From IMG/VR virus record IMGVR_UViG_3300045988_098821: a DNA stretch of 62,074 nt; one strand, written 5' to 3'. The notes beneath the pieces were generated by a model that worked only from the letters and a program-made list of their open reading frames with translations, did no database searches and was not told the origin of the DNA. The first letter of the stretch is position 1; the number at the start of each line of letters is the position of its first letter. Below are positions 1 to 46,735 of this stretch, piece by piece. Both the position numbers and the translations under genes were made by a program. The DNA comes from a virus.

Positions 1-486
1 CTGTCGCTGAGGATGCTCCTTTGTATCCTGTCGCTGAGGATGCTCCGTAGCTTCCTATCGCTGAGGATGCTCCGTAGTATCCTGTCGCTGAGGATGCTCC
101 GTAGCTTCCTGTCGCTGAGGATGCTCCTTTGTATCCTGTCGCTGAGGAAGCTCCGTTGTATCCTGTCGCTGAGGATGCTCCTTTGTATCCTGTCGCTGAG
201 GAAGCTCCGTAGTCTCCTGTCGCTGAGGATGCTCCGTAGTATCCTGTCGATGAGGATGCTCCTTTGTATCCTGTCGATGAGGATGCTCCTTTGTATCCTG
301 TCGCTGAGGATGCTCCTTTGTATCCTGTCGCTGAGGATGCTCCGTAGTATCCTGTCGCCGAGGATGCTCCGTAGTCTCCTGTCGCTGAGGATGCTCCGTA
401 GTCTCCTGTCGCTGAGGATGCTCCGTAGTCTCCTGTCGCTGAGGATGCTCCTTTGTATCCTGTCGCTGAGGATGCTCCGTAGCTTC
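1..486 (-). repeat. 27-bp tandem repeat array, 18 units (left half of junction-spanning array)
   Basis: Unit ctgtcgctgaggatgctcc + 8 partly variable nt, head to tail from nt 1 to 486; all frames open, which creates decoy ORFs. Confidence 0.97.
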
Positions 487-9384: not shown

Positions 9385-10455
9385 TTACTCAATCCAAGCC
9401 TGGAACTTGTCAATGAATCTGTATTTGTCTCCGGCGAATCCGTCCATGCCACTTGCTTTCAGTGTATCGACCTGATCTGCGTAGAAGTTAGGATTGTTCT
9501 GTACAGAAACTCTGTAGTGGACCATCTTGTACTTATATCCTTCCGGTGTAATGTAGTACAGCTCAACTGCAAGAATCTCTGAACCATCTCCGAGGATTCC
9601 ATTGACCTTGTCATTCAGATTGTAGCTGTTGCCGAATGTAAGGTATGGCAGCCAACCATTCTTTCTTGTATATACTCTACAGCGAATACTTCCTTTGCTT
9701 ACTTTAATGGCAAGCCACTTGATTGGCACATTGTCACCTTTGCCAGCCCAGTCCGCCTTGTTCGTTACTGCCGGCCACCACTTAGTTGTATAAGCCTGAT
9801 ATGTAATATCGACATGTCCTAAGTCTTTCTTTTCCATTGGCTTAGATGGTGCTGACGGTGTAACAGGCTGAACAGTTCCACCAAACTCCATGTAACAATG
9901 GTTCACATCTACTCTTCCGCTGACTCCATCTACATGACCATCGGATGAATACTGCCAAATTGCATACTGACCATTGTAAGTATCTTCCGGAAGATTCTTG
10001 TATCTTGCCATCCACTCAACATACTTTCCACGAACACTGCCAAGGTAGTTGTTGAACCAACTCAGTGATGCGTAGATTCCCGGAGTATACCCATTCGCTT
10101 TGAGTCCTTCACAGACAATTTCACAGCATCTAGGAGCATAGTTCTGTGTTCCTGGCTCTTCCACATCAATGAAAATAGGTAACTGGAATGTATGCCCTTT
10201 AATCAGCCTTAAGATGTGAGCAAGTTCGCTCTGTGCCTGTCTGTCGCAAGTTGCATAGCTATACAAATAGACTCCAACCGGAATTCCAAGTCTTTCGCAC
10301 TCTGCAAGGTTTCTCACCCACTGCTTATCGTCCTGTGATGCGATATCATCTCCATATCCACATCTAAGGATAGCTCCGGCACAACCTGATGCCTTGACTC
10401 TTTCCCAGTTGATAACTCCGTTATGATAGCTTACATCAATGATTAACTTACTCAT
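9385..10455 (-). CDS. Endolysin: GH25 muramidase with C-terminal putative cell-wall-binding domain
   Basis: MSKLIIDVSYHNGVINWERVKASGCAGAILRCGYG...IPVGVYLYSYA...LPIFIDVEE is a GH25 signature. ATG 10455 preferred over the GTG at 10464. Confidence 0.85.
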   Translation of the reverse strand: MSKLIIDVSYHNGVINWERVKASGCAGAILRCGYGDDIASQDDKQWVRNLAECERLGIPVGVYLYSYATCDRQAQSELAHILRLIKGHTFQLPIFIDVEEPGTQNYAPRCCEIVCEGLKANGYTPGIYASLSWFNNYLGSVRGKYVEWMARYKNLPEDTYNGQYAIWQYSSDGHVDGVSGRVDVNHCYMEFGGTVQPVTPSAPSKPMEKKDLGHVDITYQAYTTKWWPAVTNKADWAGKGDNVPIKWLAIKVSKGSIRCRVYTRKNGWLPYLTFGNSYNLNDKVNGILGDGSEILAVELYYITPEGYKYKMVHYRVSVQNNPNFYADQVDTLKASGMDGFAGDKYRFIDKFQAWIE

Positions 10456-10624
10456 ACCAGCCACCTTCTTTCAGTTCTGCTTTCTTCTGTTCAATCTCCG
10501 CAGCGTGTTCCTCTGCAAACTTCTGCATAACTTCAAGTGATGTCCCCTCGTTATCGGAAATCTCCTTTGCGGATAATCCGTAGGCGAAACTCTTAATTAT
10601 TTCTTTAATTGTCTGTTCTGTCAT
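10448..10624 (-). CDS. Small protein (58 aa), possible HTH
   Basis: Hand translation MTEQTIKEIIKSFAYGLSAKEISDNEGTSLEVMQKFAEEHAAEIEQKKAELKEGGWYE; stop overlaps the endolysin start. Confidence 0.5.
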   Translation of the reverse strand: MTEQTIKEIIKSFAYGLSAKEISDNEGTSLEVMQKFAEEHAAEIEQKKAELKEGGWYE

Positions 10625-10834: not shown

Positions 10835-10987
10835 TTACTTTTCCAGTGCCTCACGGATTGCCTCAAGGTCATCCACTGTAAGTGCTGGATAATCTGCCGC
10901 AATATCCTCAAAAGACTCTCCGTTTTTAAGACGGATTTTAAATGCTCTTACCATGATTTTCAATTTAAGTGTGTTCAATGTTTTCAT
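10835..10987 (-). CDS. Small hypothetical protein (50 aa)
   Basis: Hand translation MKTLNTLKLKIMVRAFKIRLKNGESFEDIAADYPALTVDDLEAIREALEK; TAATG overlap with the upstream ORF. Confidence 0.45.
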   Translation of the reverse strand: MKTLNTLKLKIMVRAFKIRLKNGESFEDIAADYPALTVDDLEAIREALEK

Positions 10988-11313
10988 TATGCTTCTCCTC
11001 CAATCAAATCAGCCATTATTAAGATGATATCGTCTGTAGTTGCTTCTAATGTATCGATACGTTCTGTATCCGTCCCAACCTCATTCTCATAGTCAAGGTA
11101 CTTACCTGGGTTAGCTTTTACATCGTCCAAATCGAGAGTGCCGGTAGGCTCTGAGATTTCCTTGTAATCATATTCATGATAAGTCTGTTTCTCTTCCTGT
11201 CCCTCTGGAATCTCTGTCACAATGTTCTCATTCAGGCAGATATAGATATAATCTATTCCGTCAATCTGTCTAACAGTAACACTTTCTTGCGCAGTGTCGA
11301 ATCTTGCTTTCAT
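10987..11313 (-). CDS. Acidic hypothetical protein (108 aa) downstream of the DGR reverse transcriptase
   Basis: ORF track; strongly D/E-rich; overlaps the RT 3' end by 44 nt. Confidence 0.55.
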   Translation of the reverse strand: MKARFDTAQESVTVRQIDGIDYIYICLNENIVTEIPEGQEEKQTYHEYDYKEISEPTGTLDLDDVKANPGKYLDYENEVGTDTERIDTLEATTDDIILIMADLIGGEA

Positions 11314-12466
11314 GTGATATCACTCCCTTACATATTTGAATCGTTTTGTTTGCGTTGTATCTTCTTTTTATATTGTAGCTATCCGTGTGGTCTAAGATGC
11401 CTTTGTATGACATGCACTTCCTTGCAAGCCATAATGGAATCTTCTTCCTCTGCTTCACAAGGGATTGTGCTTTCTTGTACGACCGCCTCACTCTTAAGAA
11501 AACTCTTCTTCTAATTGTGATATGCTGTCTGTATATGCGGACACCCATAATATCAATAAAATGACCATCATCTTTGCGTTTTGCGACCGTTGTATATACC
11601 GTCCAACTGTCTTTAATTTCCAATCCCATTTCATCCGCTTTCTGAATAATCAGCCTCATAGCCTTGTGAATGTCTTTTGCATTCGTGCCGAGAATCAAAA
11701 TATCATCCATGAAGAAAAGCTGGTGTTTCACAAGATTAATTCTTTCTGTTGTTCCGCTTCTTTTCTTTCTGATGCGATACATATTCTCCGCTATTTCATG
11801 GTAGATTTGAGATAGGAATAGGTTGCAAAGATACTGACTTAAATATGAACCAATGCTCAATCCTGTGTCGAATGTCATGATTAACATTTCTATCAGTTCA
11901 AGTAGTGATTCATTCTTAATGTATTTCCGAAGAAATTCCATTAATTTGTTTCTGTCTATTGATGGATAACATTTGCTGATATCGCATTGACCAGCGTATC
12001 TGATATTTTTGTTTCTCATCCATCGTTTTATTGCTTTGATACCGTAGGATTGACCTCTACCTTTCAGTGCTGCACATTGGTATTCTCCAATTCGCTTTAA
12101 GAAGTCTTTCATAGCTTCTACTGCGATATAATCGTAGATTTGCTGTTTAATGTTCTGAATTCCGATTCTTCGCACTTTCTGACTGGAAGCGTCAATCTTT
12201 TCTTTGTACCATATTGGTTGAAAGTGAATATTGCCTTGAATGATTTCTTCACGTACTCCGTCAACCACTGTTTCAACCATCGGTTTCATTCCGTTTAATC
12301 CGGACTCATTGAACATTCCTTTAATAGTGTCTGTCGAAAGTCCAGTGTATTCAGAAAACATTGTCAATGAATCTCTTCTTTTGTATTTCTTTTTAAGGCA
12401 TTTGTATACTGCCTTTTGAATCAGTTTTCTATCTGTTATATCGACCGTTTTGCAATACGTCTTCAT
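11270..12466 (-). CDS. DGR reverse transcriptase
   Basis: IGSYLSQYLCNLFL ([ILV]GxxxSQ) and FFMDDILILG (YxDD-type box). ATG 12466 (MKTYCKTVDITDRK) preferred; the 42 upstream codons of the track ORF cover the TR-RT spacer. Confidence 0.9.
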   Translation of the reverse strand: MKTYCKTVDITDRKLIQKAVYKCLKKKYKRRDSLTMFSEYTGLSTDTIKGMFNESGLNGMKPMVETVVDGVREEIIQGNIHFQPIWYKEKIDASSQKVRRIGIQNIKQQIYDYIAVEAMKDFLKRIGEYQCAALKGRGQSYGIKAIKRWMRNKNIRYAGQCDISKCYPSIDRNKLMEFLRKYIKNESLLELIEMLIMTFDTGLSIGSYLSQYLCNLFLSQIYHEIAENMYRIRKKRSGTTERINLVKHQLFFMDDILILGTNAKDIHKAMRLIIQKADEMGLEIKDSWTVYTTVAKRKDDGHFIDIMGVRIYRQHITIRRRVFLRVRRSYKKAQSLVKQRKKIPLWLARKCMSYKGILDHTDSYNIKRRYNANKTIQICKGVISHESKIRHCARKCYC

Positions 12467-12674
12467 CGATTGTCTTTTTAAGGGCTTTCGGTTTGTACTA
12501 CTAACCCCGACAGATAGGCTAACCCTATCCGCCCTTACTCCTTTCGTCAAAAATAAAAGTTTCAGTAGGTCTATAAAAAGTATTTCGGGCATCTGTCCAA
12601 GAGTCTTTGCAAACTACACTCTTTACGAGTGCGAAATACGACGCAAGGATTTTATATTTAGAAATTAACAATTT

Positions 12675-12767
12675 CAGCCGAGGTAATTCCAGTTCGTCCT
12701 GTCAAGCCTGTTCCTGCAATTCACGTACACTGAGCCAGCATTCGACCCATTCCTGAGATTACCGCGT
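12675..12767 (-). repeat. DGR template repeat (TR)
   Basis: Aligns gap-free with 12860-12952 (offset 185). All 16 differences are T on the given strand, i.e. A on the coding strand. TR codons at variable sites include AAT/AAC. Confidence 0.9.
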
Positions 12768-12852
12768 GCGCCGTAAGTCCTTATATTTCAGCCGGTCGTA
12801 TTAGGGGAGCCCCCTCTTTCCTAGAGGAAATTCACCCCCCAACGACCTCTTC

Positions 12853-14586
12853 TTAATCGCAGCCGAGGAAATACCAGTACGCCCAGCCAAGCCAGCTCCA
12901 GCAAGACACGAACACAGAGCCAGCATGCGACCCATTCCTGAGAGCACCGCGTCCAAGGTCTTCTCGAGTTCCAGATGTAATCTTACCGCCAGCGTAACAT
13001 CTATCGCCCCAACCTTGAGAGTCGCTCTTTCCGATGGCTTTAGCGAACCATGAACAAGTTTCCATATCCACTCCGACATCACCAATCCACCAGTCAGCTC
13101 CATCGTTGCTAGGCATATTCCCAATCAGTTTATATGTGCTCTTGATGGTTGCTTCATCCTTTACGTGCTTCACGCCTCTAGGAGCAATATACATGTCCTT
13201 GCTGTAATCTTCCTTAAACACCATGACCGAATCTGAATATACGATATATCCACCTACTGAATTTTCAATTCCCATGACACGGAATGGATGTTTACCATCT
13301 GTATTCGAACTCATTGAACCATCGTGTTTTCCAATAACCTTATCGGTCGAACCGCTCCGCCAATGCATAGTTGACAGCATAATCTGTGCATTCAGAGTAT
13401 CACTCAATGCTACTGGTGTTGTTGCGAATCCATCTTCGATATCCAAGTACACAGCCTTGTTATTTTCATCGAGCGTTTCAATTCTAAGGACTTTTACATC
13501 ATCAGCGTATCTGTGGATTGTTCCAACTCCACGGTCGTTATTAACCGTATTATCAGTATTTTTTGAGCCATAACCTACAGAAACGTAAGAGCCGACAAGA
13601 ATCTTCGAAGCCTGCGCATTCGTAAGAGGAAAGTAGATTTCTTTTGTATCTCGCTGAATGGATGCTGGAAACTGAGAGTTGTAATCAGTTGTGCCTTTGA
13701 AGATTTTCTGTTCATTCTTTGTAGCATACTTAATCACTTCGTACAGAATGACATACATATTTCTTTCTTTTCCAGCGCCCCAACAGCCTTTTCCTTTTCT
13801 CTGATAATTGTCAATCATGTTGTTGTAACATTGATTTCTAGCTGGTTTAGAACCACTGAATGACCTAAGAAGTCCATCCGTGCCAAGTCCACTGACATAC
13901 TTGCTATGAATCACATAGGAAGCGTAAGTTCCATCTTCTTTTCTAGCCGTTTCCCACGGAATTAATCCGTAATTATCATTCGGAGTGTCGGATAATGTCC
14001 AAACCTGTTTGCCATCTTTCTCAATAGCCGACCAGTACGGAGTCATTGCAATAACACCAACGTCAACAGATCCATCATTCTTATAACCATTTCCCCATCC
14101 CTCGATTGCTGTAGGAATTTTGCGTCCGTAATCATCTGTCACGTAGTTGCAGTTAAACCAGTTAAAAATTCCAATACCCTCATAGTCATCTCTGCCCTCT
14201 ACGGTGTCTGTTGATGGTTCACATACCATGTTCGCATTAGCAAGAGTCTTAACACCGTCAGAGGTTGGGTTTGTTTCTGTCAGATACACTTCTGTCTGAT
14301 ATACTTTTCCATTTCTCATTGACCCGAAGAATGCCTCAAGGATTCTCTCATCAATGGTATCTGTTACATGCTTTACATTCACCATCTCTTCCTTTAGTTT
14401 ATCCACATTCTCTTCCAGCACTGTATAATCCTCTGGGATGCTCTCCAGTGTCTTATTTCCTTTGGCTTCGATCTGTTTGATTAATTCTTCTGTACTCTCT
14501 TCTGCTATGGCATTCATTACTCCGGTATAACTTGTTCCATCTTCATTTTTTACTCTTAGTTTTGTTTTCTTTATGAATACACTCAT
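12853..14586 (-). CDS. DGR target (variable) protein, probable receptor-binding tail protein with C-terminal C-type-lectin-like variable region
   Basis: 577 aa, last gene of the tail module; C-terminus ...GRGALRNGSHAGSVFVSCWSWLGWAYWYFLGCD is encoded by the VR. Confidence 0.85.
   Translation of the reverse strand: MSVFIKKTKLRVKNEDGTSYTGVMNAIAEESTEELIKQIEAKGNKTLESIPEDYTVLEENVDKLKEEMVNVKHVTDTIDERILEAFFGSMRNGKVYQTEVYLTETNPTSDGVKTLANANMVCEPSTDTVEGRDDYEGIGIFNWFNCNYVTDDYGRKIPTAIEGWGNGYKNDGSVDVGVIAMTPYWSAIEKDGKQVWTLSDTPNDNYGLIPWETARKEDGTYASYVIHSKYVSGLGTDGLLRSFSGSKPARNQCYNNMIDNYQRKGKGCWGAGKERNMYVILYEVIKYATKNEQKIFKGTTDYNSQFPASIQRDTKEIYFPLTNAQASKILVGSYVSVGYGSKNTDNTVNNDRGVGTIHRYADDVKVLRIETLDENNKAVYLDIEDGFATTPVALSDTLNAQIMLSTMHWRSGSTDKVIGKHDGSMSSNTDGKHPFRVMGIENSVGGYIVYSDSVMVFKEDYSKDMYIAPRGVKHVKDEATIKSTYKLIGNMPSNDGADWWIGDVGVDMETCSWFAKAIGKSDSQGWGDRCYAGGKITSGTREDLGRGALRNGSHAGSVFVSCWSWLGWAYWYFLGCD
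12860..12952 (-). repeat. DGR variable repeat (VR)
   Basis: Last 31 codons of the target gene; 77/93 identical to TR, with mismatches only opposite TR adenines. Confidence 0.9.
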
Positions 14587-14678: not shown

Positions 14679-16640
14679 TTAGCTGAATACTTCAGGAATC
14701 ACACCTTTTATGCTATTAAAAATACAGGTATTTCCATTTTTTGATGGGTGAATACCATCAGACAAAATATTTTCACCATTAACTATACTGTATTCGTCTA
14801 TAAATTTATAGCCAAGTGACTTAATCCAAGGGTTAACTTCTGTAATAAAATTTGCATTATCGGTATCAGTTCTAATTGGAATTGTGGTTAATACTGGTTC
14901 AACACCCATTCTTATAAAATAATCAATTATATTAAGTAGGTTATTTTTAAAAGTATCAACCGTAATTGTTTTTGATACACTATCATTTGCTCCAATTTGT
15001 AAAAAAACAAAATTGTATTTCCCGACATCACCATCTGTTTTAATCCTTTTTAAAAGTTCATTCGTTGTAGCTCCGCCACGCCCCGAAATTGAGCATTTTG
15101 TTCCTAATTCTTTTCTGACAAGATATGCGAATCCTGCATTTGACGGAATCAAAGTGGAAGCTACTTCTATAAAGCTGTCTCCAATTAAAAGAAGATTAAA
15201 ATATTCATCAACTATTGTTTTCTGTGACATTTCCCATATTCTAAACTGCCCACCAAGAGATTGAAAAGCAACTCCACCCCATGCACGTATTTTATTTGAT
15301 AATTGCTCATTATCTGCTATGTGTTCATATTTAAATGTTTTTGTTGTATCAGTAATACACGAAAAACAAAAAATAATACTGTACAATCCGTCTTTCGTTA
15401 TCTCCAAAAGATATTTTTCACCAGTATTAATATCAAAATCAAATGTTAGGTTTCTTTTTACATTATCTGTACCATTCCAATCACTATGGTAGATTTTTAT
15501 AGTTTTGTTAAGTGGACTTATAATGCATTTTAAGCCATTTACTCCACCATCACCATCTTTTGTTCCGAACGCAAAATCTCCCACAGTACCGATAGATACT
15601 AACCATGTTAATTTTTCAAACAGTGGGGATGTCACAGCATTTCGATAAACCGTTCTTCCGTTATTTATATACATAGTACCATATGGTATTGTTTCTTTGT
15701 CCAAATATGCTTTTATTGGTGTATTATCCCCATTTTCTAATACATACATGTCTTCTTGATTGTGGATTGTCCAACATCTTTTTTTAGATGGCGTTATATA
15801 TTTTATTGCTTTATCAGCTTCTTCTTCAACCTTAGCAAGTCTATTTTTGATATTCTTCTTTCCAACGACACGGATATTTTTTTTGGCATAATCCGTTTCC
15901 ATCACAGAGGAATCACTGTTTTTAGCATCAATATATATTATGTCATAAGAATTATCATTGTATTTTTCGGATATAGTATAATCTTTTATAAATTCTGTGT
16001 ATCCAATTAGAACATTTTCATATGTTACAAACCACACTCTAATCGTTGCCAATCCTGTGCATACAATACTACTTCCAACTGGGATTACTCCTTTATCATA
16101 GCTAGGACTTTTTAATCTTAGATGATACGCAGAACTACTTGTATCGGTAAATTCTTTTACTTTTGTCACGCCATTTGATACATATGTTACATGATACCCT
16201 CTGGTGAAACTTATTGGATATTCGTCCAATATATTTTTTAAATCACCTATGTCTTCCTTGAGAGAATTAAATTCCCCCATATCAGGCACTTCCACCTCAT
16301 CATCTTCATCTGAAATCCATACATTATTGTTCGGGTCTGTTGGCTGGTCTTTCTGTCTAACAACAAGATTCTCCCTTAGTTTTCTTGCCTGTCCTCTCAT
16401 GGCATTTCCGATGTTTTTATGGACTTCTCCATCTACATCCGTTCTTCCATCTATAAGTTCTTCATTTAGTAAACTAATTTTTTCTTTGTTTGTTGTAATC
16501 TGCGCCAACTCTTCTTCCGAAATTCCACCTAAATCCCCATCAGACGGAGCGGGAGGGATTAGCGTTTTCTTTTCGATTTCACCCGTGTCTTTGTTCTTTA
16601 CATTTAAAAATGCAGCTTTTCCAATATCACTCGTTGCCAT
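14679..16640 (-). CDS. Tail fibre/baseplate protein with C-terminal SGNH/GDSL esterase domain
   Basis: 653 aa; SGNH blocks LLIGDSFIE, GRGGATT, LQIGANDS, SDGIHPS in the last ~190 aa. Confidence 0.7.
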   Translation of the reverse strand: MATSDIGKAAFLNVKNKDTGEIEKKTLIPPAPSDGDLGGISEEELAQITTNKEKISLLNEELIDGRTDVDGEVHKNIGNAMRGQARKLRENLVVRQKDQPTDPNNNVWISDEDDEVEVPDMGEFNSLKEDIGDLKNILDEYPISFTRGYHVTYVSNGVTKVKEFTDTSSSAYHLRLKSPSYDKGVIPVGSSIVCTGLATIRVWFVTYENVLIGYTEFIKDYTISEKYNDNSYDIIYIDAKNSDSSVMETDYAKKNIRVVGKKNIKNRLAKVEEEADKAIKYITPSKKRCWTIHNQEDMYVLENGDNTPIKAYLDKETIPYGTMYINNGRTVYRNAVTSPLFEKLTWLVSIGTVGDFAFGTKDGDGGVNGLKCIISPLNKTIKIYHSDWNGTDNVKRNLTFDFDINTGEKYLLEITKDGLYSIIFCFSCITDTTKTFKYEHIADNEQLSNKIRAWGGVAFQSLGGQFRIWEMSQKTIVDEYFNLLLIGDSFIEVASTLIPSNAGFAYLVRKELGTKCSISGRGGATTNELLKRIKTDGDVGKYNFVFLQIGANDSVSKTITVDTFKNNLLNIIDYFIRMGVEPVLTTIPIRTDTDNANFITEVNPWIKSLGYKFIDEYSIVNGENILSDGIHPSKNGNTCIFNSIKGVIPEVFS

Positions 16641-21288: not shown

Positions 21289-24200
21289 CTATGTTGTACC
21301 GAAACTGTATCCAGAGTTTCTTCTTCCCCTTGACAGTTCTTTATTTACTTTCTTGCTGTTCATCATCAGTGATGTATTTTTTCTAAGAAGTCTCTCATTC
21401 TGCTCGATAAGCTTCTGTAAAAGTCTTTCTGTATTTTTGTTCGCTTCTGCAACTCCGTTGGATACTCCGGTCACAATCTGATTGTTGTTAGCAACCACAT
21501 TTCTATTTCCCATTCTTCCAACGTATTCCGGTGCTTTCTCATTCGCCACAAACAGCTCGCCATTCTGAGGAAATCCACCTACAGAATATTTCCCGACCAC
21601 ATCAGACAGCTTGAATGTACCGATACCGTTTGCGTATCCTTTGTATCCACGGGCAGTCCATCCAGCGTACAGGCTTCCGTATCTTTTGACTGTGTAATTG
21701 ATAGCAGCGATCATGTTTGACAGTGGATCGTATATGTTTGTGTTGAATCCAGCCATCGCATTTGCACGGAATGTCGGGTCAATTACCTGCATCAGTCCTT
21801 TTGACGGAATACCTCTGATTGCGTTGATATCCCAGTTGTTGATAGCGTTCGGATTTCCACCCGACTCATGCATCATCTGAGTTAGCAAGGCATTCAGATT
21901 GGATTCGCTGAACTGATTTGTCAGTAAAAGAGCTTTTTTCGCAAGTCCTCTCCACTGCTCCACTCCGGCAGATGGTTTGTAATCAACAGCACCGAAACTG
22001 TCAAAGAATCCTTTGATTTTGGAAACTGCTGTTTCAAACAGTGAATTAACTGCCGTCTTTGCAATTGTGATTCCAGGCTCAAGTGCTCCTGTCAAATCTG
22101 TGAATTTATCAATTGCTGCTTTAAGAAGCTTCTTCGGGTCTTTGATGTAACCTAAAATGTTACTTGCAATATCGCTGATTTTGTCTGCTGTACTTCCAAA
22201 GAAATTACCGATTCCAGATTTATACTTCTTCACGCCAGTAATTCCCATCAATGCTGCTGTTTGACCAGCTGGCATTACCTTTGTACCTTTCGGCATCGGC
22301 AGAACGACATTTCTTCCTGTTGGAATTACTGTTTGTCCGTTCGGATACTGGACAAGCTCTCTGTAGGTATTTCCTGACTGGTCGTTGACAACACCAAAGG
22401 AATCTCTCGCGACTCCGTTTGTACCGCTTGCGTACTTATTAAGTCCAGAGACGTTAATCAGATCGCCGTCTCCACCTAATTTTCCGTAAACCCAGTTCAC
22501 AGCATTAGCGATTGCTTTTACTGCTCCTAAAACAGGTGATTTTATCCAACCTGCTACAGTATTGAAGTATCCACCAATCTTGTTAAAAATTGAAGTAATT
22601 CCGTTGTATGCTGACTTAAAAATATCCTTGAACCACTGAGCAATCGGCTTCAGATTTGACTTGATATCTTCACGTTTTTGACCAAACCAAGAACCGATGT
22701 TTGAAAATACATTCGTTATACCGTCTCTAGCAGCTTGAAATTTTTTCGAAAACCACTGTACAATTGGTGAGAAAATTGTTGTAATCGCCATAAAAAGCAA
22801 TTGGAATAAAGATGAAATATATTGCTTAAATCCAAGAACAATATCTTCTACTCCTTTCCAAGCTTTTCCCCAATCTCCAGTAAATGCACCTGTCACAAAT
22901 GTAATTAAACCTTGAATTATCTTTATCGCTCCACTCACCATTCCAGTGATAACAGAAACAACTTGTGCTATCTTTTTGATTATTATTGACAGCACTGCTC
23001 CGATTGCTTTTACTGCGGAAATCATTGTTGATTCGAACAGCTCTTTTGCTCCACTTGATGCGTATAAATCGTAAATAGAATTAAACAGTTCTTTTAGGTT
23101 CTCCCAAAGTGGTTTAAATCCGTTATCCCAAATTTCTTTTTTCGCAAAAGAAAATGCATCTCCAATTTCCCCAACAGCATTTTTTACAGCATCTCTGAAT
23201 CCATCAGAAGTTTTCCACAAGTCCATGAGTTCAGCAACTAAAATTGTAATTCCGGCAACAATCAATAAAGTTGTTGGAGATAATGTAATAAGAGATTTAA
23301 AGTTTAGCTTTCCTGCAACTTCCTTTATTTTATTGAATTTTTCTGCCATTCCATCTAATTTTGGAAGAATTTCAGCTATTTTCTTTGTGATTTCACCTGT
23401 TGCTCCGATTCCAATAACAGATGCAAGTATTCCTGTATTTTCACCACCGTCAGAAGCAAACTTGAAGGCATTCTTTATTCCATCAATAATCTGTGATCCA
23501 AGTTCTTTCCAATTGGCATTCTGAATAAATGTTATAATTGACTCTATTACAAGAGCAACCATTCTTCCGATGGATTCTCCGATTGTTCCAAGATTGATAG
23601 AATCTAACGCACCGTTAAAAGCATCAGCCAACGCCATTCCAATGTCTTCACCTTTAAGTTCTCTCAGTACACCGACAAGTGTGTTCCAAGAAATCATAAA
23701 ATACGCCCCGAGAGTGTATCCTATCGTTCCCCAGTCAATGTTTTGAATTCCTGTTGAAATAGCTGTTCCGATTCCAGTTCCAAGATTCGTCCAGTTAAAT
23801 CCTGTAATCAAAAGCTGTGCAGTATTGAAAACCGTATTCACTCCGGCAGCAACAGTAGCTCCCATTAACGGCCATTCAATATTGTCAACAAGGCTATTCA
23901 TTGTTGTGGTAAAAGCATTGCAGAAATAAGTAATCTTTTCCCCATGCTTATTCCAGTCAAATATGTCATATAATTTCTGCATTCCGGCATTTACGCCCTC
24001 TGCCATGATTGAGCCTAGAGAAGTCCAATCTTGAGCTTTGAACGCTTCTCTGAGCCGTTTAGCATAATCAGAAATAGCTTTAGTCGGTTCAGTTGTCTCA
24101 AACATTTCAGAAACATCTGGTCCCGTATAAGCACCGGAACTTCCGTCAGCTCCACCACTTGAACTTGAGCTTGATGTTGTCGGCTGGATTACATTTAGTT

Positions 24201-25398
24201 CATCAATTCCAAGAGTATAGTTCTCAAGGTCTTTTGCTGCTTTTGCCGCATCACTTCCAGCTTTTTTAGCACTACTTCCAGTGGATGTGAGTGTTTTTCC
24301 GTAGTCTTTCCATGCTTTTTTTGCTTGCACCACTGCTGTTTTTCCAGTCAATACAGCCATGAACTGCGCGACCTTATTCATTGCATTTGCAAGCATATCA
24401 ATAAATGCTGAAATATACGGTCCGACTACATTGATAATCGGAGCAAAAGCCGCCGCCCATGCATTCTTCAAATACAGAAGAGATGTGACAATACCAGAAA
24501 TGCTCTTATTGTAATCAGAACTGTATTGAACAAGGTTATTTGAACCTTCCTTGATTGCATTGTTTATTGCGCTTAATGCTGAAAATACAGTGGAAAATAC
24601 AAGTGACATTCCAAGCATTCTTCCCATTGACATTTGACCACCAGATTTGTTTGTTCTGGTAATCAAATTCTTGAGATCTTTTGCCTTAGAAACTACGCCA
24701 CTAACTGTTTTCTCCATCTTCCCAAACGTATTGGAAAGAGATTTTGAAACTTTCTGAGTGCCGGAAAGAATATTCGAAAGCTTAGACGCTTCTTTTGATT
24801 CTTCAGCAATTCCTTTGTCTTTGCCTGGAGCATTTTTTGAAATTTTTTGTTCCGTTTCCGCTCCACCCTGGCTGACAGGTGATTGCACTTGTATACTTTT
24901 TATTTCATTCAACAAATTCTTATACTGCTGAGCTTTTTGAATCTGTTTTTCCCAAGCATCACCGGAGATAAAAGAAGTCCCTTTTCTTTCCATGGTGTCG
25001 TTAATGCCTTGCATCGTGTTTTTAAGCTTTTTGGAAATATCTTCTTGCATTTTCGCAAGTTCTTCTACTCCAAGGTCATTTACTTTAAAATCAACCATAA
25101 GTTTGGAATTTTTATACTTTTCCATAAGCTCATCATATGACTTTGTGGCTTTTTTCACCTTTTTATCGTCAACATCAATCTTGACTTTTTTCTTTCCGAT
25201 TGAATCTTCTTTATCAGCGATATTATCAAGGTCTTTTTCCAAGCTTTTTGTAGAATTAAAGCTGAAATCTTTCCCCATAACAGTGGAAAGTCCTTGCTTT
25301 ACTTCTTTTATTTTTGCAATTAATTTGTCGAGTTCCGCATTTGCTGACTTAGCCGACGCTTCAACTTTTACCTCAAGAGAGTCAACCTCTGTTCCCAT
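21289..25398 (-). CDS. Tape measure protein with lytic transglycosylase (SLT) domain
   Basis: 1369 aa; Gly/Ala/Ile-rich hydrophobic middle; SLT motif LTQMMHESGGNPNAINNWD...GLMQVIDPTF...AAINYTVKRYG. Confidence 0.9.
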   Translation of the reverse strand: MGTEVDSLEVKVEASAKSANAELDKLIAKIKEVKQGLSTVMGKDFSFNSTKSLEKDLDNIADKEDSIGKKKVKIDVDDKKVKKATKSYDELMEKYKNSKLMVDFKVNDLGVEELAKMQEDISKKLKNTMQGINDTMERKGTSFISGDAWEKQIQKAQQYKNLLNEIKSIQVQSPVSQGGAETEQKISKNAPGKDKGIAEESKEASKLSNILSGTQKVSKSLSNTFGKMEKTVSGVVSKAKDLKNLITRTNKSGGQMSMGRMLGMSLVFSTVFSALSAINNAIKEGSNNLVQYSSDYNKSISGIVTSLLYLKNAWAAAFAPIINVVGPYISAFIDMLANAMNKVAQFMAVLTGKTAVVQAKKAWKDYGKTLTSTGSSAKKAGSDAAKAAKDLENYTLGIDELNVIQPTTSSSSSSGGADGSSGAYTGPDVSEMFETTEPTKAISDYAKRLREAFKAQDWTSLGSIMAEGVNAGMQKLYDIFDWNKHGEKITYFCNAFTTTMNSLVDNIEWPLMGATVAAGVNTVFNTAQLLITGFNWTNLGTGIGTAISTGIQNIDWGTIGYTLGAYFMISWNTLVGVLRELKGEDIGMALADAFNGALDSINLGTIGESIGRMVALVIESIITFIQNANWKELGSQIIDGIKNAFKFASDGGENTGILASVIGIGATGEITKKIAEILPKLDGMAEKFNKIKEVAGKLNFKSLITLSPTTLLIVAGITILVAELMDLWKTSDGFRDAVKNAVGEIGDAFSFAKKEIWDNGFKPLWENLKELFNSIYDLYASSGAKELFESTMISAVKAIGAVLSIIIKKIAQVVSVITGMVSGAIKIIQGLITFVTGAFTGDWGKAWKGVEDIVLGFKQYISSLFQLLFMAITTIFSPIVQWFSKKFQAARDGITNVFSNIGSWFGQKREDIKSNLKPIAQWFKDIFKSAYNGITSIFNKIGGYFNTVAGWIKSPVLGAVKAIANAVNWVYGKLGGDGDLINVSGLNKYASGTNGVARDSFGVVNDQSGNTYRELVQYPNGQTVIPTGRNVVLPMPKGTKVMPAGQTAALMGITGVKKYKSGIGNFFGSTADKISDIASNILGYIKDPKKLLKAAIDKFTDLTGALEPGITIAKTAVNSLFETAVSKIKGFFDSFGAVDYKPSAGVEQWRGLAKKALLLTNQFSESNLNALLTQMMHESGGNPNAINNWDINAIRGIPSKGLMQVIDPTFRANAMAGFNTNIYDPLSNMIAAINYTVKRYGSLYAGWTARGYKGYANGIGTFKLSDVVGKYSVGGFPQNGELFVANEKAPEYVGRMGNRNVVANNNQIVTGVSNGVAEANKNTERLLQKLIEQNERLLRKNTSLMMNSKKVNKELSRGRRNSGYSFGTT

Positions 25399-27801: not shown

Positions 27802-28248
27802 TTATCCCTCTTTAATCAATCGTTGAAGCAAGAATGTATCTTCGTGCATAGCTTCATCGTTGACGTCCTTAACAACGTAGTCTGCGGAATTTTCATCCAC
27901 GTTTGGCATATTTATCGGGTCTTTGTATTTAATGGATGAATTGCGCCAAATACGCGCCCCTTTTGCCAATGGAAGAGTTCCTTTTGCACAGACAATCGTT
28001 GCCTTGTCAGAGGAATCATCAATGCCAAACGCCCGAATAAATGTATCGGTCAATGTAGAATTGATGTTCGCTCTGAATAACTTAGGATCCGTGTAGTGTG
28101 GTTCAGTCTCTCCTGACTCAACAGGAATCTGTTCTCCATCTACTTCGATGTACTTTACATTTCCATCATCATCAGTCATATATACCGGAGACGTACCATC
28201 TTGCAAGGAGTAGTACATTTTCTGCTTATTTCTGTTCAGTGTCCTCAC
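27802..28248 (-). CDS. Neck/head closure protein (position-based)
   Basis: 148 aa; ORF track; position. Confidence 0.45.
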   Translation of the reverse strand: MRTLNRNKQKMYYSLQDGTSPVYMTDDDGNVKYIEVDGEQIPVESGETEPHYTDPKLFRANINSTLTDTFIRAFGIDDSSDKATIVCAKGTLPLAKGARIWRNSSIKYKDPINMPNVDENSADYVVKDVNDEAMHEDTFLLQRLIKEG

Positions 28249-28519
28249 TTACGGTCACCTTCTTTACTTGCTTCTGAATCTGATTTACACCAGTACTTGC
28301 AAGTCCTGATACAATTCCTACTGCAATTGCATCAAGAACGTCTGTTGCTGGAAAGTTAGGAATTACATACATTCCAACAACTCCGAGAATTCCTCCGGCC
28401 ACACCAACAATCACAGGGATATAATTATCTTTTACTTTTGGACACAGTTTTGCTCCGAGTCCAACAAGATAAGTAATAACCACGATCGCCAATACGGTTT
28501 CCATTGAAAAAATATCCAT
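28226..28519 (-). CDS. Holin-like membrane protein
   Basis: 97 aa, about 3 TM segments; KVKDNYIPVIVGVAGGILGVVG...AIAVGIVSGLASTGVNQIQKQ resembles clostridial/LL-H-type phage holins. Confidence 0.6.
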   Translation of the reverse strand: MDIFSMETVLAIVVITYLVGLGAKLCPKVKDNYIPVIVGVAGGILGVVGMYVIPNFPATDVLDAIAVGIVSGLASTGVNQIQKQVKKVTVSEDTEQK

Positions 28520-29556: not shown

Positions 29557-30645
29557 TTACGCTACTTTCATAACAACAACGCTGTTCATTCCCTCAAATG
29601 ACGGGAGACCAATCATGGATACTACGCAATGAGTATTGATTGGATGCTCTGTTGCATATGTGTAGACAGAAATACCAGTTTCAACAAGTTGAAGATTTCC
29701 TCCGGCAAGGTCTCCACTTCTCTCTTCCGGTGTTCTTCCGAATACGTAGTCTCCAAGATATACTCCTGCTGACTGACAAGAGATAATGTTTGTTGGGATG
29801 AAATACTGTGTTGTTCCAGATTCATCAACATACATCTTGTCATATACCTCGATTTCGATTCCGTACTCTCTCAGATAAGAAAGAACATCTGCCTGTCTTA
29901 CTCTGATACCGCCGTTGTAAGCAGTAATTCCGAGTACCTGTTTCTTTGTGTCTTCTGCTTTCAGAATCATCTCAAATGTCTCTGTATTCATAGAGAATCT
30001 TGTCAGAGAATATCCTGTCTTCTTTGCGAAATCACGTCTTGTGTCGATCAAGTCTTGAAGTGGTGTTGCTGTTGCCGGAACATTCCACTTATCAGATGTT
30101 CCTTGAATCTCAACGAAGTGATCCGCCTTGTGCTTTGCTCCATTGTCTGTTGTGTAATCAATTGTGTATGTCTTGTCTTTGATTTTAACAGTAACTTTCG
30201 GAACACCATCTGGCGGAGCAAGCAACTGCCAAATCTGTCTTTCAGGAACTACCATGGCTCCTTGAATCAGATTCATAGGTTTCTTGCTAATCTGTCTGAG
30301 TACCTGATTTGCAAGATTTGAGTTTTCAGCAGACTGATAGTTCGCATACTGCTGTTCCTCTTTTTCTGTAACCATGTAGGACTCTCTGTAGAACGGCATT
30401 TCGTTCTGGATATCCTGGAATCCACCAACATCTCTTAATTCTGCCTGTGCATCAAAGTTGGATGCTTTCAGAGAGATTGGCTGAGAATTTTCACCAAGGA
30501 TATATCTCATTTCCAGTGAATCCTGTTTTGTTGTTCCAAATTTCTGTCTTCCAAGATACGGTGGAAGCGCAAGAGACGCTTTGTAGTTATCCCACATAAC
30601 TCCAAGACTTCTCGCTGTAAATGCTTGACTTAATGGTAATGCCAT
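29557..30645 (-). CDS. Major capsid protein (lambda gpE-like)
   Basis: 362 aa; gene order scaffold-decoration-capsid as in lambda; C-terminal ...VVSMIGLPSFEGMNSVVVMKVA resembles the gpE C-terminus. Confidence 0.75.
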   Translation of the reverse strand: MALPLSQAFTARSLGVMWDNYKASLALPPYLGRQKFGTTKQDSLEMRYILGENSQPISLKASNFDAQAELRDVGGFQDIQNEMPFYRESYMVTEKEEQQYANYQSAENSNLANQVLRQISKKPMNLIQGAMVVPERQIWQLLAPPDGVPKVTVKIKDKTYTIDYTTDNGAKHKADHFVEIQGTSDKWNVPATATPLQDLIDTRRDFAKKTGYSLTRFSMNTETFEMILKAEDTKKQVLGITAYNGGIRVRQADVLSYLREYGIEIEVYDKMYVDESGTTQYFIPTNIISCQSAGVYLGDYVFGRTPEERSGDLAGGNLQLVETGISVYTYATEHPINTHCVVSMIGLPSFEGMNSVVVMKVA

Positions 30646-36503: not shown

Positions 36504-36574
36504 CAAGCGTAACTGGAATCGAACCAGTACATCAGGAGTCAAAGTCCTGTGCTCTGCCTTTAAGCTATACGCCC
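36504..36574 (-). tRNA. tRNA-Gln (anticodon UUG)
   Basis: Hand fold: GGGCGTA/TA/GCTT-AAAGGCA-GAGC/A/CAGGA-CTTTGAC-TCCTG/ATGT/ACTGG-TTCGATT-CCAGT/TACGCTT/G; two G-U pairs at the acceptor end. Confidence 0.8.
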
Positions 36575-46714: not shown

Positions 46715-46735
46715 TCCTTTTTAAACGATATCTTT

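What the first reader, a model, noticed from the sequence alone, without database searches (positions are those of the whole stretch)
11270..14586. Complete diversity-generating retroelement diversifying the C-terminus of a tail-module protein
The RT (11270..12466) carries IGSYLSQ, the DGR-type [ILV]GxxxSQ motif, and an FMDD catalytic box. A 93-nt TR (12675-12767) aligns gap-free at offset 185 with a VR (12860-12952), which forms the last 31 codons of the 577-aa protein. There are 16 mismatches. Every one is at a T of the given strand in TR, which is an adenine on the coding (minus) strand. TR encodes ..RGNLRNGSNAGSVYVNCRNRLDRTNWNYLG, while VR encodes ..RGALRNGSHAGSVFVSCWSWLGWAYWYFLG. Diversified codons in TR are mostly AAT/AAC, the classic DGR design that avoids stop codons. 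The VR context (G..NG..AG...W...G) resembles the C-type-lectin-fold variable proteins of known DGRs. The target is the last gene of the tail module, so this likely concerns receptor-binding tropism switching.
Basis: partly seen in the sequence, partly recalled or inferred. Interest (0 to 1): 0.8.

Follow-up and report, generated by a model that had tools for sequence, protein, structure and literature searches.

The report
Active phage tail-fibre diversity-generating retroelement
A gut-bacterial virus carries a working copy-and-scramble device: a reverse transcriptase and a template RNA that rewrite the tip of its tail-fibre protein. This is a well-known kind of system, here in its minimal form with no helper protein.

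Summary

- **Repeat pair.** TR (12670-12767) and VR (12855-12952) align without gaps over 98 nt. All 18 mismatches sit at TR adenines (P = 2e-13).
- **Mismatch types.** Sixteen are true mutagenesis sites. The last two (TR AA, VR CG) are identical in every relative, so they mark the IMH/IMH* boundary.
- **Activity.** In 22 related loci the TRs are conserved, but 21 VRs are distinct and vary only at adenine-templated columns. Thirty-five proteins of ≥90%-identity clusters (the window's included) carry 35 different VR peptides.
- **RT.** It has 398 aa (11270-12466) with IGSYLSQ and FMDD. Its best solved relative is the Bordetella phage DGR RT.
- **Target.** The 577-aa protein models at pLDDT 91.7 and matches the DGR variable protein TaqVP and phage tail fibres.
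- **No helper protein.** I found no Avd or other accessory gene. This is the known architecture A (target-TR-RT).
- **Added here.** The 203-nt TR-RT spacer is a conserved structured RNA. Two strongly covarying long-range duplexes bracket TR, like the stop and primer duplexes of the Bordetella element. No Avd-binding stem-loop is present. A conserved GGGGTGAAT-hairpin element follows VR.

Verdict: genuine and active, a new member of a known kind.

The parts
12853..14586 (-). DGR target gene. It encodes a 577-aa distal tail-fibre or receptor-binding-type protein with a C-terminal CLec-type variable domain.
   Evidence: ORF. No Pfam hit; matches PHROG 17147 at 3.6e-77. The AlphaFold model has pLDDT 91.7. 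The top PDB fold match is TaqVP 5vf4, and BFVD matches are tail-fibre proteins. The family has 681 representatives at 50% identity, sharing a conserved C-terminal ~500 aa under variable N-termini.
12855..12952 (-). Variable repeat (VR), 98 nt. It covers the last 32 codons plus the first base of the stop codon.
   Evidence: There are 21 distinct VRs in 22 related loci.
12869..12945 (-). The part of VR that is actually diversified (repeat positions 8-84). It has 23 adenine-templated positions in 16 codons, allowing about 7e13 DNA variants and 3.5e12 peptides with no possible stop codon.
   Evidence: Column entropies, codon enumeration, peptide variation.
12855..12868 (-). IMH-like 3' end of VR, CCTCGGCTGCGATT. 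The CG at 12859/12858 never varies.
   Evidence: Invariant in 22 of 22 loci. The VR end ...CTGCGATT is kept across the whole RT lineage.
12768..12854 (-). Conserved 87-nt element after VR. It contains GGGGTGAATT (12829-12838), hairpin TTTCC/GGAAA (12817-12830) and the GC hairpin AGGGG-loop-CCCCT (12803-12815). It is the candidate target-recognition element, the counterpart of the BPP-1 hairpin/cruciform.
   Evidence: Alignments, with one covarying pair in hairpin A. The motif stays next to VR in L076, L077 and L078, and stays there even where an RNase H gene separates VR from TR. The fold of this region alone is not more stable than shuffled sequence (z = -0.78).
12670..12767 (-). Template repeat (TR), 98 nt with 27 adenines. 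Its 3' end, CCTCGGCTGAAATT (12670-12683), is IMH*.
   Evidence: TR adenines are conserved across loci (entropy 0.13 bits). Non-adenine lineage differences are shared by the TR and VR of the same locus.
12467..12669 (-). Spacer (Sp) RNA, a 203-nt non-coding structured region between TR and the RT start codon.
   Evidence: Relatives differ by indels that are not multiples of 3. RNAalifold predicts 50 pairs, 7 with compensatory change, and 99.5% of cells are paired against 41-52% in slid controls. There is no Rfam match. The 3' core GGGGTTAGTAG..CCGAAAGCCC..AAAGACAATCG is kept down to 47% RT identity.
12767..12776 (-). P1a, TTACGGCGCA at the 5' edge of TR. It pairs with P1b.
   Evidence: best-duplex search; 9 of 10 pairs compensatory, 90% paired against 12-49% in slid controls, covariation score 0.825 against 0.28, 0 of 500 shuffles.
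12637..12645 (-). P1b, TGCGTCGTA at Sp 25-33. It is the partner of P1a and the analogue of the BPP-1 'cPRT Stop' duplex.
   Evidence: The BPP-1 comparison rests on bioRxiv 10.1101/2023.10.23.563531.
12667..12672 (-). P2a, ATTGTT: the last 3 nt of TR plus the first 3 nt of Sp. It pairs with P2b.
   Evidence: 5 of 7 pairs compensatory, 92% paired against 26-51% in slid controls, 0 of 500 shuffles.
12469..12474 (-). P2b, GACAAT, followed by a conserved CG and then the RT ATG. It is the partner of P2a and the analogue of the BPP-1 template:primer duplex, so it is the candidate cis-priming site.
   Evidence: The motif NNNNAAT-CG is conserved across the lineage even where 30-50 nt separate it from the RT start.
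11270..12466 (-). DGR reverse transcriptase, 398 aa. IGSYLSQ at residue 205 and FMDD at residue 252.
   Evidence: Pfam RVT_1 3e-15. PHROG 1423 4.7e-61, 208 bits. Best PDB hit 8ub7, the BPP-1 bRT, at 5.7e-8. The start codon was fixed by comparison with relatives. Motif positions.

Best explanation
This is a complete, recently active diversity-generating retroelement of the accessory-free type (target-VR / TR / spacer RNA / RT). It lies in a temperate siphovirus-like phage of human-gut Lachnospiraceae.

Shown:
- TR is an invariant master copy.
- VR, the last 32 codons of a tail-fibre-type protein with a CLec-type fold, is repeatedly overwritten from TR, with random substitutions only at TR adenines.
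- Information transfer stops before the fixed CG of the VR end.

Inferred from covariation and by analogy with the Bordetella phage BPP-1 element:
- An RNA running from just upstream of TR through the 203-nt spacer folds so that two spacer segments pair with the two flanks of TR.
- P2 (ATTGTT:GACAAT) places the spacer's 3' part on the 3' end of TR as a built-in primer. The RT would then start cDNA synthesis at about TR position 95.
- P1 (TTACGGCGCA:TGCGTCGTA) closes the 5' end of TR and stops synthesis.
- The adenine-mutagenised cDNA then replaces VR. It is guided by the homologous GC-rich VR end (CCTCGGCTGCGATT) and by the conserved GGGGTGAAT-hairpin element just downstream.
- No Avd is involved.

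The likely result is a huge repertoire (up to about 3.5e12 peptides) on the ligand-binding face of the tail fibre, which lets the phage follow changes in host receptors.
For: TR/VR pair:
- 98 nt, 18 of 18 mismatches at TR adenines, P = 2.3e-13.

Ongoing activity:
- 21 distinct VRs in 22 loci with conserved TRs.
- VR entropy is 1.29 bits at A columns and 0.18 elsewhere.
- Lineage-specific non-A changes are shared by the TR and VR of the same locus.
- Against its nearest relatives (L001, L029) the window differs at 12-13% of VR positions, about 0.9-1% of the rest of the gene, and 1-2 of 1498 nt of TR+Sp+RT.
- 35 of 35 VR peptides are distinct among proteins of ≥90%-identity clusters.

RT:
- Motifs, PHROG 1423 at 208 bits, and best solved relative bRT 8ub7.

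Target:
- Confident model. TaqVP is the only significant PDB fold match. BFVD matches are tail fibres and FGE/TvpA-like proteins.
- The weak profile alignment to TaqVP falls exactly on the VR.

Context:
- Terminase, portal, capsid and tape-measure genes upstream. GH25 endolysin downstream. Integrase present.

RNA:
- Non-coding spacer with covarying hairpins.
- P1 and P2 covary across RT relatives of 47-100% identity.
- The same two-duplex logic was solved for BPP-1.

No Avd or other accessory gene:
-.
- The conserved 108-aa ORF after the RT also occurs in RT-free phages.
- Architecture A is a known class.
Against: - No experiment or read-level data for this genome. Activity is inferred from comparison between genomes.
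- The P1 and P2 alignments were built by anchoring on conserved motifs, and partly from a best-duplex search. That favours pairing, although the slid and shuffled controls are far lower.
- In 3 of 18 sequence variants the anchored best duplex was not the conserved P2. In L128/L129, P2 needs a bulged A.
- In L145/L146, P1 was not recovered.
- The nucleotide at the 3' end of the putative primer strand is U, not the A used in BPP-1.
- RNAalifold helix 2 overlaps P1b by 3 nt, so the fold is not fully resolved.
- No promoter for the TR RNA was found.
- The post-VR element alone folds no better than shuffled sequence.
- Avd proteins are poorly conserved, so a very divergent or host-encoded helper cannot be excluded.
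- The receptor-binding role of the target rests on position and fold only.
Confidence: 0.9

Rival explanations
1. It is a fossil DGR. The parts are recognisable but the element no longer diversifies in this genome, and the VR differences are inherited.
For: Activity was not measured in this genome. Decayed relatives exist. L003 has VR and TR collapsed into one hybrid repeat. L022 has a TR that has lost 11 adenines.
Against: In the window the RT ORF, catalytic motifs, 27 TR adenines, P1, P2 and the VR end are all intact. Relatives with 1-2 differences in 1498 nt of TR+Sp+RT differ at 12-13 of 98 VR positions. Diversification has therefore occurred on the time scale of almost no other divergence.
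Confidence: 0.05
2. The RT belongs to another retroelement or to a defence system (group II intron, retron, DRT/Abi), and the TR/VR repeat is an ordinary diverged duplication.
For: There are weak generic RT similarities: group II maturase model 57 bits, Drt3a 20.6 bits, and PADLOC RT models at no more than 66 bits.
Against: All those scores are far below the family cut-offs (300 and 200 bits). The phage DGR-type PHROG scores 208 bits. No intron or retron RNA was found by Rfam. Random divergence cannot place 18 of 18 differences on adenines (P = 2e-13), nor reproduce that pattern in 27 independent loci.
Confidence: 0.01
3. The element is a DGR, but the diversified protein is not the host-receptor-binding protein. 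It could instead be a decoration or adhesin that binds something else, such as mucus or host glycans, or another bacterial surface.
For: No Pfam or NCBIfam annotation exists. The preceding 653-aa protein with an SGNH/GDSL esterase domain could be the primary receptor-binding or depolymerase protein. Gut-phage DGRs with non-canonical CLec targets (tentaclins) have been proposed to bind other ligands (PMC10743442).
Against: The gene lies at the distal end of the tail module. Homologues carry swapped N-terminal anchors, as tail fibres typically do. The best viral fold matches are annotated as tail fibres. The domain order is C-terminal CLec, not the N-terminal CLec plus Ig domains of tentaclins.
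Confidence: 0.15
4. The element needs an accessory protein after all: a very divergent Avd, a host factor, or the conserved small ORF downstream of the RT.
For: In BPP-1, Avd is essential, and Avd sequences are poorly conserved (PMC5758913). A 108-aa ORF overlaps the RT 3' end in the window and in relatives L076, L077 and L078.
Against: No 23S_rRNA_IVP/Avd hit in any 85-200-aa ORF of the window at E <= 0.05, nor in the neighbours' precomputed Pfam annotations. The 108-aa protein is acidic. Its 60%-identical homologue sits after a tail-fibre gene in phages with no RT nearby. The AU-rich 21 nt just downstream of TR, where Avd-positive DGRs carry the Avd-binding stem-loop, is unstructured and varies in length.
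Confidence: 0.2

Closest known systems
Bordetella phage BPP-1 DGR (mtd-VR / avd / TR / Sp / brt)
   Same: - Adenine-specific TR-to-VR transfer into the C-terminal CLec domain of a tail-fibre protein.
- RT with I/LGxxxSQ and YxDD-type motifs, and the best solved relative of this RT.
- A fixed IMH/IMH* difference at the 3' end.
- A structured element downstream of VR.
- TR bracketed by two long-range duplexes with the spacer RNA (upstream:Sp and TR-3':Sp).
   Different: - No avd gene, and no Avd-binding stem-loop after TR.
- TR lies 87 nt after the target's stop codon.
- The spacer is 203 nt rather than 140 nt, and its sequence is unrelated.
- The putative primer strand ends in U followed by CG, not in A56/G57.
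- The RT is 398 aa rather than 328 aa.
- The target is 577 aa with no detectable sequence similarity to Mtd, which ranks only 39th by fold.
Accessory-free DGRs: Architecture A1 and the avd-lacking 'Lineage 3' of Wu et al. 2018 (PMC5758913)
   Same: The layout is target-TR-RT with no accessory gene and a single adjacent target. The element is phage-associated and has almost no non-adenine substitutions, all as described for that class.
   Different: Membership of Lineage 3 itself was not tested, because no RT tree was built with their set. That paper did not describe the RNA structure or the VR-side motif reported here.
TaqVP, the Thermus aquaticus DGR variable protein (PDB 5vf4)
   Same: It is the only significant solved fold match (probability 1.00, E = 2.8e-5, TM 0.44-0.48 on the target length). 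The VR-bearing C-terminal segment aligns with the VR here.
   Different: Sequence identity is 10-13%. TaqVP is a cellular protein of 381 aa, not a phage tail fibre. The window protein has an extra N-terminal anchor and additional beta domains.
Human-gut phage DGRs (Hankyphage, crAss-like and 'thousands of gut phages' surveys; PMC6199706, PMC8008677)
   Same: Same habitat and same logic: a phage RT and TR diversify a CLec tail protein. The closest GenBank phage records are unannotated gut-metagenome phages from such surveys (MT835469 and others).
   Different: Those best-described examples infect Bacteroidota. This lineage is associated with Lachnospiraceae/Eubacteriales.

Membership tests
Diversity-generating retroelement (DGR) | A TR/VR repeat pair whose differences fall (almost) only at TR adenines | tested here: met
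   18 of 18 mismatches at TR adenines over 98 nt, P = 2.3e-13. The same pattern holds in 27 of 32 related loci tested.
Diversity-generating retroelement (DGR) | An adjacent RT of the DGR clade with the [ILV]GxxxSQ motif and a YxDD-type catalytic box | tested here: met
   IGSYLSQ at residue 205 and FMDD at residue 252. They align with IGSLTSQ and YMDD of BPP-1 bRT 8ub7, the best PDB hit. PHROG 1423 scores 208 bits. No phylogeny was built.
Diversity-generating retroelement (DGR) | VR lies at the 3' end of an ORF that encodes a ligand-binding fold tolerant of variation (usually C-type lectin) | tested here: met
   VR is the last 32 codons. The model has pLDDT 91.7. The top PDB match is the DGR variable protein TaqVP. 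BFVD also returns FGE-like and TvpA-like proteins. Solvent exposure of the variable residues was not examined.
Diversity-generating retroelement (DGR) | Directionality: TR is invariant, VR is variable, and a fixed 3' IMH/IMH* difference is present | tested here: met
   TR entropy is 0.13 bits and VR entropy 1.29 bits at A columns. Repeat positions 94-95 are always CG in VR and never CG in TR.
Diversity-generating retroelement (DGR) | Accessory variability determinant (Avd) or another accessory gene (HRDC, MSL, CH1). This is present in most DGRs but not all | tested here: not met
   No Avd/23S_rRNA_IVP, HRDC or MutS-like hit in the neighbours or in any 85-200-aa ORF of the window. The 108-aa downstream ORF is a phage gene found without an RT elsewhere. 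This is not disqualifying: 29% of curated DGRs have no accessory gene (PMC5758913).
Diversity-generating retroelement (DGR) | Adenine-mutagenised cDNA made from TR RNA and homed into VR | not testable with these tools
   This needs cDNA sequencing or a homing assay. Only the population-level footprint was seen.
BPP-1-type DGR RNA architecture | A duplex between the 3' end of TR and the spacer that positions a cis-primer | tested here: met
   P2 is ATTGTT:GACAAT. Across 15 sequence variants, 5 of 7 pairs show compensatory change, and 92% of cells are paired against 26-51% in slid controls. Function as a primer is inferred.
BPP-1-type DGR RNA architecture | A duplex between sequence upstream of TR and the spacer ('cPRT Stop') | tested here: met
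   P1 is TTACGGCGCA:TGCGTCGTA. Across 14 variants, 9 of 10 pairs are compensatory, and 90% of cells are paired against 12-49% in slid controls. The associated stem-loop plus A-minor adenosines were not assessed.
BPP-1-type DGR RNA architecture | An Avd-binding stem-loop immediately downstream of TR | tested here: not met
   The 21 nt between P2a and P1b are AU-rich, vary in length and are left unpaired by RNAalifold.
Group II intron, retron or defence RT (DRT/Abi) | A score above the family cut-off for the RT, plus the cognate RNA (intron domains or msr/msd) | tested here: not met
   TIGR04416 scores 57 bits against a cut-off of 300. Drt3a scores 20.6 bits against 200. PADLOC RT models score no more than 66 bits. 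Rfam finds nothing in 12300-13000.
Tentaclins (DGR-diversified phage proteins) | An N-terminal CLec domain followed by Ig-like domains | tested here: not met
   The variable CLec-type region here is C-terminal. The family definition comes from PMC10743442.

The most novel reading that the evidence does not exclude
This element represents a large gut-phage lineage, with at least 442 RT relatives in IMG/VR, of truly two-component DGRs made of an RT and one RNA. In this lineage the RNA keeps the two TR-bracketing duplexes of the Bordetella system (stop and primer) but has lost, or never had, the Avd-binding stem-loop. The RT alone would therefore carry out cis-primed, adenine-mutagenic cDNA synthesis. 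A VR-linked GGGGTGAAT-hairpin motif would serve as the homing signal. If so, this is the first defined RNA and target-site grammar for Avd-independent mutagenic retrohoming, and a compact chassis for engineered targeted mutagenesis.
Probability: 0.45. Interest if true: 0.6.

Novelty: new member of a known kind. Interest (0 to 1): 0.4.

Why it matters
DGRs in gut phages are common, so the element itself is not surprising. It is, however, an unusually clean and demonstrably active example of the accessory-free class, whose mechanism has never been studied. All mechanistic work is on the Avd-dependent Bordetella element.

The comparative data give a concrete model that can be tested by mutation:
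- two covarying duplexes that bracket TR;
- a candidate primer site next to a conserved CG;
- a fixed CG/AA boundary for information transfer;
- a conserved motif just after VR.

This makes the question 'how do DGRs work without Avd?' directly testable. It also points to a minimal RT-plus-RNA system of about 1.7 kb that could be useful for programmable mutagenesis. Biologically, it suggests rapid receptor-binding variation in phages of Lachnospiraceae, an abundant group of gut bacteria with few characterised phages.

Tried and rejected
- **Rfam.** A gathering-threshold scan of the whole window and an E-value scan of 12300-13000 found nothing in the DGR region, only a chance 17-bit hit.
- **Longer RT ORF.** The 440-aa ORF starting at 12592 was rejected. 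The upstream 126 nt carry indels that are not multiples of 3 in relatives, and the region has RNA-type covariation. The 363-aa gene call in L029 is too short, because conserved coding sequence starts at MK(T/R)YCK.
- **Avd.** Not found by Pfam or NCBIfam on the neighbours, by the precomputed Pfam of a 97%-identical locus, or by a Pfam scan of all 85-200-aa ORFs joined into three pseudo-proteins.
- **The 108-aa ORF (10987-11313) as a new accessory protein.** Rejected. A 60%-identical homologue follows a tail-fibre gene in phages with no RT nearby.
- **Second target.** No other TR-like copy exists in the window.
- **Own promoter or terminator for the TR RNA.** Promoter-like hits did not exceed chance. 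Terminator-like hits were somewhat above the shuffle mean, but none lies in the VR-TR-spacer region.
- **Cruciform after VR.** The DNA fold is no more stable than shuffled sequence (z = -0.78). Two competing outer stems exist (GGTCGT/ACGACC, or pairing with the TR-proximal CGGCGC), and this is unresolved.
- **Sequence-profile search of PDB with the target family.** Only a non-significant TaqVP hit (E = 0.54), although it falls on the VR.
- **Host from reference genomes.** The Sp motif hit only one Eubacteriales MAG. Host assignment rests on protein names from Lachnospiraceae bacterium SGI.240 and Mediterraneibacter faecis.
- **Covariance model.** Not built. The anchored alignments were enough, and calibration time was a risk.

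Full report
**1. The observation**

The region was read on the minus strand, which is the sense strand. The repeat finder and a direct comparison show one gap-free direct repeat at offset 185.
- The repeat is 98 nt: TR 12670-12767 and VR 12855-12952. That is 5 nt more than reported.
- There are 18 mismatches, every one at an adenine of TR. TR has 27 A in 98 nt.
- The hypergeometric probability that all 18 fall on adenines is 2.3e-13.
- A scan of both strands of the window, tolerant of adenine changes, finds no further copy.
- VR is the last 32 codons of a 577-aa ORF (12853..14586) and ends on the first base of its TAA.

The RT ORF is 11270..12466. IGSYLSQ is at residue 205 and FMDD at residue 252.

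**2. Is it a DGR, and is it active?**

The RT evidence:
- Pfam RVT_1 at 3e-15.
- The phage RT family PHROG 1423 at 4.7e-61, 208 bits.
- The best solved relative is the Bordetella phage BPP-1 DGR RT (8ub7, 5.7e-8). IGSLTSQ aligns with IGSYLSQ, and YMDD with FMDD.
- Group II maturase, Drt3a and PADLOC RT models score far below their cut-offs.

Population evidence came from 28 IMG/VR loci that encode relatives of the target, plus one Logan contig. In the 22 loci that hold both repeats:
- There are 21 distinct VRs but only 12 TRs.
- Within-locus mismatches are at TR adenines in 13-23 cases per locus, with 0-3 exceptions.
- Mean column entropy of VR is 1.29 bits at adenine columns and 0.18 elsewhere. 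For TR it is 0.13 and 0.17.
- Non-adenine differences between lineages are shared by the TR and VR of the same locus. This is the signature of continuing TR-to-VR transfer.

Against its nearest relatives (L001, L029) the window differs at:
- 12-13 of 98 VR positions;
- 14-16 of 1634 positions in the rest of the gene;
- 1-2 of 1498 positions of TR+spacer+RT.

Thirty-five proteins (34 members of ≥90%-identity clusters plus the window's own) have 35 different VR peptides. Entropy is 0.97 bits in residues 546-577 and 0.10 in residues 80-545.

The two 3'-most mismatches (TR AA, VR CG; 12674/12673 and 12859/12858) never vary. In more distant relatives the TR carries AT, GT, GA or TA there, while VR always has CG. 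They are therefore a fixed IMH/IMH* difference that marks the 3' limit of information transfer. That leaves 16 true mutagenesis differences here and 23 mutable adenines in 16 codons. None of these codons can become a stop. The repertoire is about 7e13 DNA variants and 3.5e12 peptides.

**3. The target and its context**

- The 577-aa protein has no Pfam or NCBIfam hit. It belongs to PHROG 17147, of unknown function.
- An exhaustive search finds 681 representatives at 50% identity. A conserved C-terminal module of about 500 aa sits under variable N-termini, which is typical of tail fibres.
- An AlphaFold model built on 99 homologues is confident (pLDDT 91.7, pTM 0.85).
- Its only significant solved-structure matches are the chains of TaqVP, the Thermus aquaticus DGR variable protein (probability 1.00, E = 2.8e-5). 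Mtd ranks 39th.
- Viral predicted structures give 34 matches at E <= 1e-3. Many are annotated as tail-fibre proteins and several are crAss-like phage proteins. Just above that cut-off come an FGE-like and a TvpA-like protein.
- A family profile aligns weakly with TaqVP (E = 0.54), but exactly over the two VRs.

The window is a temperate siphovirus-like phage, with these genes:
- terminase 34265-36010;
- portal 31990-33459;
- major head protein 29557-30645;
- tape-measure protein 21289-25398;
- distal tail genes, then a 653-aa SGNH-esterase protein at 14679-16640;
- the target, the DGR, two small ORFs, and a GH25 endolysin at 9385-10464;
- integrase 53897-55108.

Named relatives come from Lachnospiraceae bacterium SGI.240, Mediterraneibacter faecis and a Eubacteriales MAG. 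The closest GenBank phages are unannotated human-faecal contigs.

**4. No accessory protein**

- TR starts 87 nt after the target's stop codon, so there is no room for avd between them.
- No Avd, HRDC or MutS-like domain appears in the neighbours, in the precomputed Pfam of a 97%-identical locus, or in any 85-200-aa ORF of the window.
- The conserved acidic 108-aa ORF that overlaps the RT's 3' end is not DGR-specific. A 60%-identical homologue follows a tail-fibre gene in phages with no RT nearby.
- This matches Architecture A of Wu et al. 2018. That class has no accessory gene and makes up 29% of curated DGRs. One lineage in that study lacks avd, and its mechanism is unknown (PMC5758913).

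**5. The RNA**

The 203 nt between TR and the RT ATG (12467-12669) are highly conserved, yet relatives differ by indels that are not multiples of 3. The region is therefore non-coding, and the RT starts at 12466. RNAalifold on 30 distinct sequences predicts 50 pairs:
- 7 pairs show compensatory changes, in helices at alignment columns 52-68, 69-84, 155-175 and 178-206;
- 99.5% of cells are paired, against 41-52% when partners are slid.

To gain divergence I fetched RT relatives down to 47% identity. At least 442 exist in IMG/VR. Adenine-only TR/VR pairs were recovered in 27 of 32 loci tested. Two long-range pairings then stand out.

P1 joins the 5' edge of TR to Sp 25-33:
- Window TTACGGCGCA (12767-12776) pairs with TGCGTCGTA (12637-12645).
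- Relatives have TGCACGGCG/TGCCGTGCA, CATGGTGCAAG/TTTGCATCATG, TTATGATGCTGG/TTAGCATCATAA, TGTGTTAC/GTAACACA, TGATGTG/CACATCA and others.
- 9 of 10 pairs show compensatory change. 90% of cells are paired, against 12-49% in slid controls. The covariation score is 0.825 against 0.28 in shuffles (0 of 500).

P2 joins the last 3 nt of TR plus the next few to the 3' end of the spacer:
- Window ATTGTT (12667-12672) pairs with GACAAT (12469-12474), which is followed by a conserved CG.
- Relatives have ATTGGTG/CATCAAT, ATTATAAA/TTTATAAT, ATTATC/GATAAT, ATTGTATTTA/TAAATACAAT and TTTCTAAA/TTTAGAAA.
- 5 of 7 pairs are compensatory. 92% of cells are paired, against 26-51% in slid controls (0 of 500).

In the BPP-1 cryo-EM work, TR is likewise bracketed by an upstream:Sp 'cPRT Stop' duplex and a TR-3':Sp template:primer duplex. 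The primer duplex places Sp A56 for cis-priming at TR G117. An Avd-binding stem-loop lies just after TR. Conservation of those elements was examined only among Avd-containing DGRs (bioRxiv 10.1101/2023.10.23.563531).

In the window's lineage, the segment between P2a and P1b is an AU-rich, unpaired linker of about 21 nt that varies in length. This fits the absence of Avd. By analogy, cDNA synthesis would start at about TR position 95, immediately 5' of P2. That agrees with the fixed, non-transferred AA/CG boundary at positions 94-95.

Caveats:
- The P1 and P2 alignments are anchored on conserved motifs and partly derived from a best-duplex search.
- Some variants need a bulge (L128/L129) or were not resolved (L145/L146).
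- RNAalifold helix 2 overlaps P1b by 3 nt.

**6. The target side**

- The 87 nt after VR are nearly invariant in close relatives.
- The motif order is kept down to 33% target identity: CGATT, then GGGGTGAAT, then a small hairpin, then GAGGGG-loop-CCCCT.
- The motif stays attached to VR even in MT835469-like phages, where an RNase H gene separates VR from TR.
- I therefore read it as the homing-site signal, the counterpart of the BPP-1 IMH plus hairpin.
- Its own fold is not statistically unusual, and only one pair covaries. This is an inference.

**7. Verdict**

This is an active DGR that diversifies the C-terminal CLec-type domain of a distal tail protein.

It is a new member of a known kind, the accessory-free architecture, and in that sense it is ordinary for gut phages. 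The added value is a covariation-supported RNA model and a target-site motif for an Avd-less lineage. Together these make its mechanism testable.

Confidence that it is an active DGR is about 0.9. Confidence in the cis-priming RNA model is about 0.6, and in a receptor-binding role for the target about 0.8.

Noticed in passing
window 36736-37319 (-), with tRNAs at 36504-36574, 37430-37503, 37639-37710 and 37714-37796 (-): A full-length ROOL RNA (RF03087, 376.7 bits, model positions 1-574 of 574) sits inside a phage tRNA cluster (Gln, Arg, Met, Ser). Rfam also calls a fifth tRNA-like hit at 37311-37371 that ARAGORN does not.
   Followed up: partly
window 38448-38924 (-): A 158-aa protein carries a Tad2-like (Thoeris anti-defence 2) domain (PF11195, 1.8e-11). 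The next ORF (38934-39344) has DUF7336. This may be an anti-defence gene of the phage.
   Followed up: no
window 1-482 and 61517-62074: The same 27-bp tandem repeat (about 18 and 21 copies, 89-91% matches) runs off both ends of the window. The contig is therefore probably a circular or terminally redundant genome cut inside a roughly 1-kb array. On the minus strand the array encodes a 9-residue EHPQRQ(D/E)T(T/K)-type repeat. A public contig of exactly 62,074 bp carries an identical protein labelled 'MAG TPA: Bacteriophage sp.'.
   Followed up: partly
window 46728-46908: An AT-rich cluster of degenerate 13/26/36-39-bp tandem repeats (ATATATA-type) lies in an intergenic gap. It looks like an iteron region and could be a replication origin.
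   Followed up: no
L003 5635-5732 (IMGVR_UViG_3300045988_083042): This is a natural collapse of the DGR. A single hybrid repeat has an adenine-depleted VR-type body but the TR-type 3' end (TGAAATT). The spacer and RT follow directly. The post-VR element and TR are deleted, and the target ends two codons early at TGA. This looks like VR/TR recombination across the IMH boundary.
   Followed up: partly
L022 5737-5834 (IMGVR_UViG_3300045988_041207): The TR of this relative has only 16 adenines instead of 27. At the lost positions it carries the same bases as its own VR. This suggests reverse (VR-to-TR) gene conversion that erodes the mutagenic potential.
   Followed up: no
L076 4786-5292 (MT835469.1); the same layout in L151-L153 and L158 (phage contigs of up to about 170 kb): In a related DGR (RT 50% identical) a 169-aa RNase H gene (PF00075, 5.9e-12) is inserted between the VR with its GGGGTGAAT element and the TR, which lies 740 nt downstream of VR. 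An RNase H inside a DGR cassette could process the RNA:cDNA hybrid.
   Followed up: partly
window 12794-12847 compared with 12481-12645: The post-VR element resembles a miniature spacer. GGTCGT...GGGGGGTGAATT...ACGACC echoes the spacer's GCGTCGTA...GGGGTTAGTAG and the TR-upstream TTACGGCGC. I could not tell whether this reflects common origin (duplication of TR plus flank) or functional mimicry at the homing site.
   Followed up: no
window 28226-28519 (-) and 9385-10624 (-): A Hol44-type holin (PF16079, 9.7e-20) lies between the head and tail modules, about 18 kb from the GH25 endolysin. Such separation of the lysis genes is unusual.
   Followed up: no
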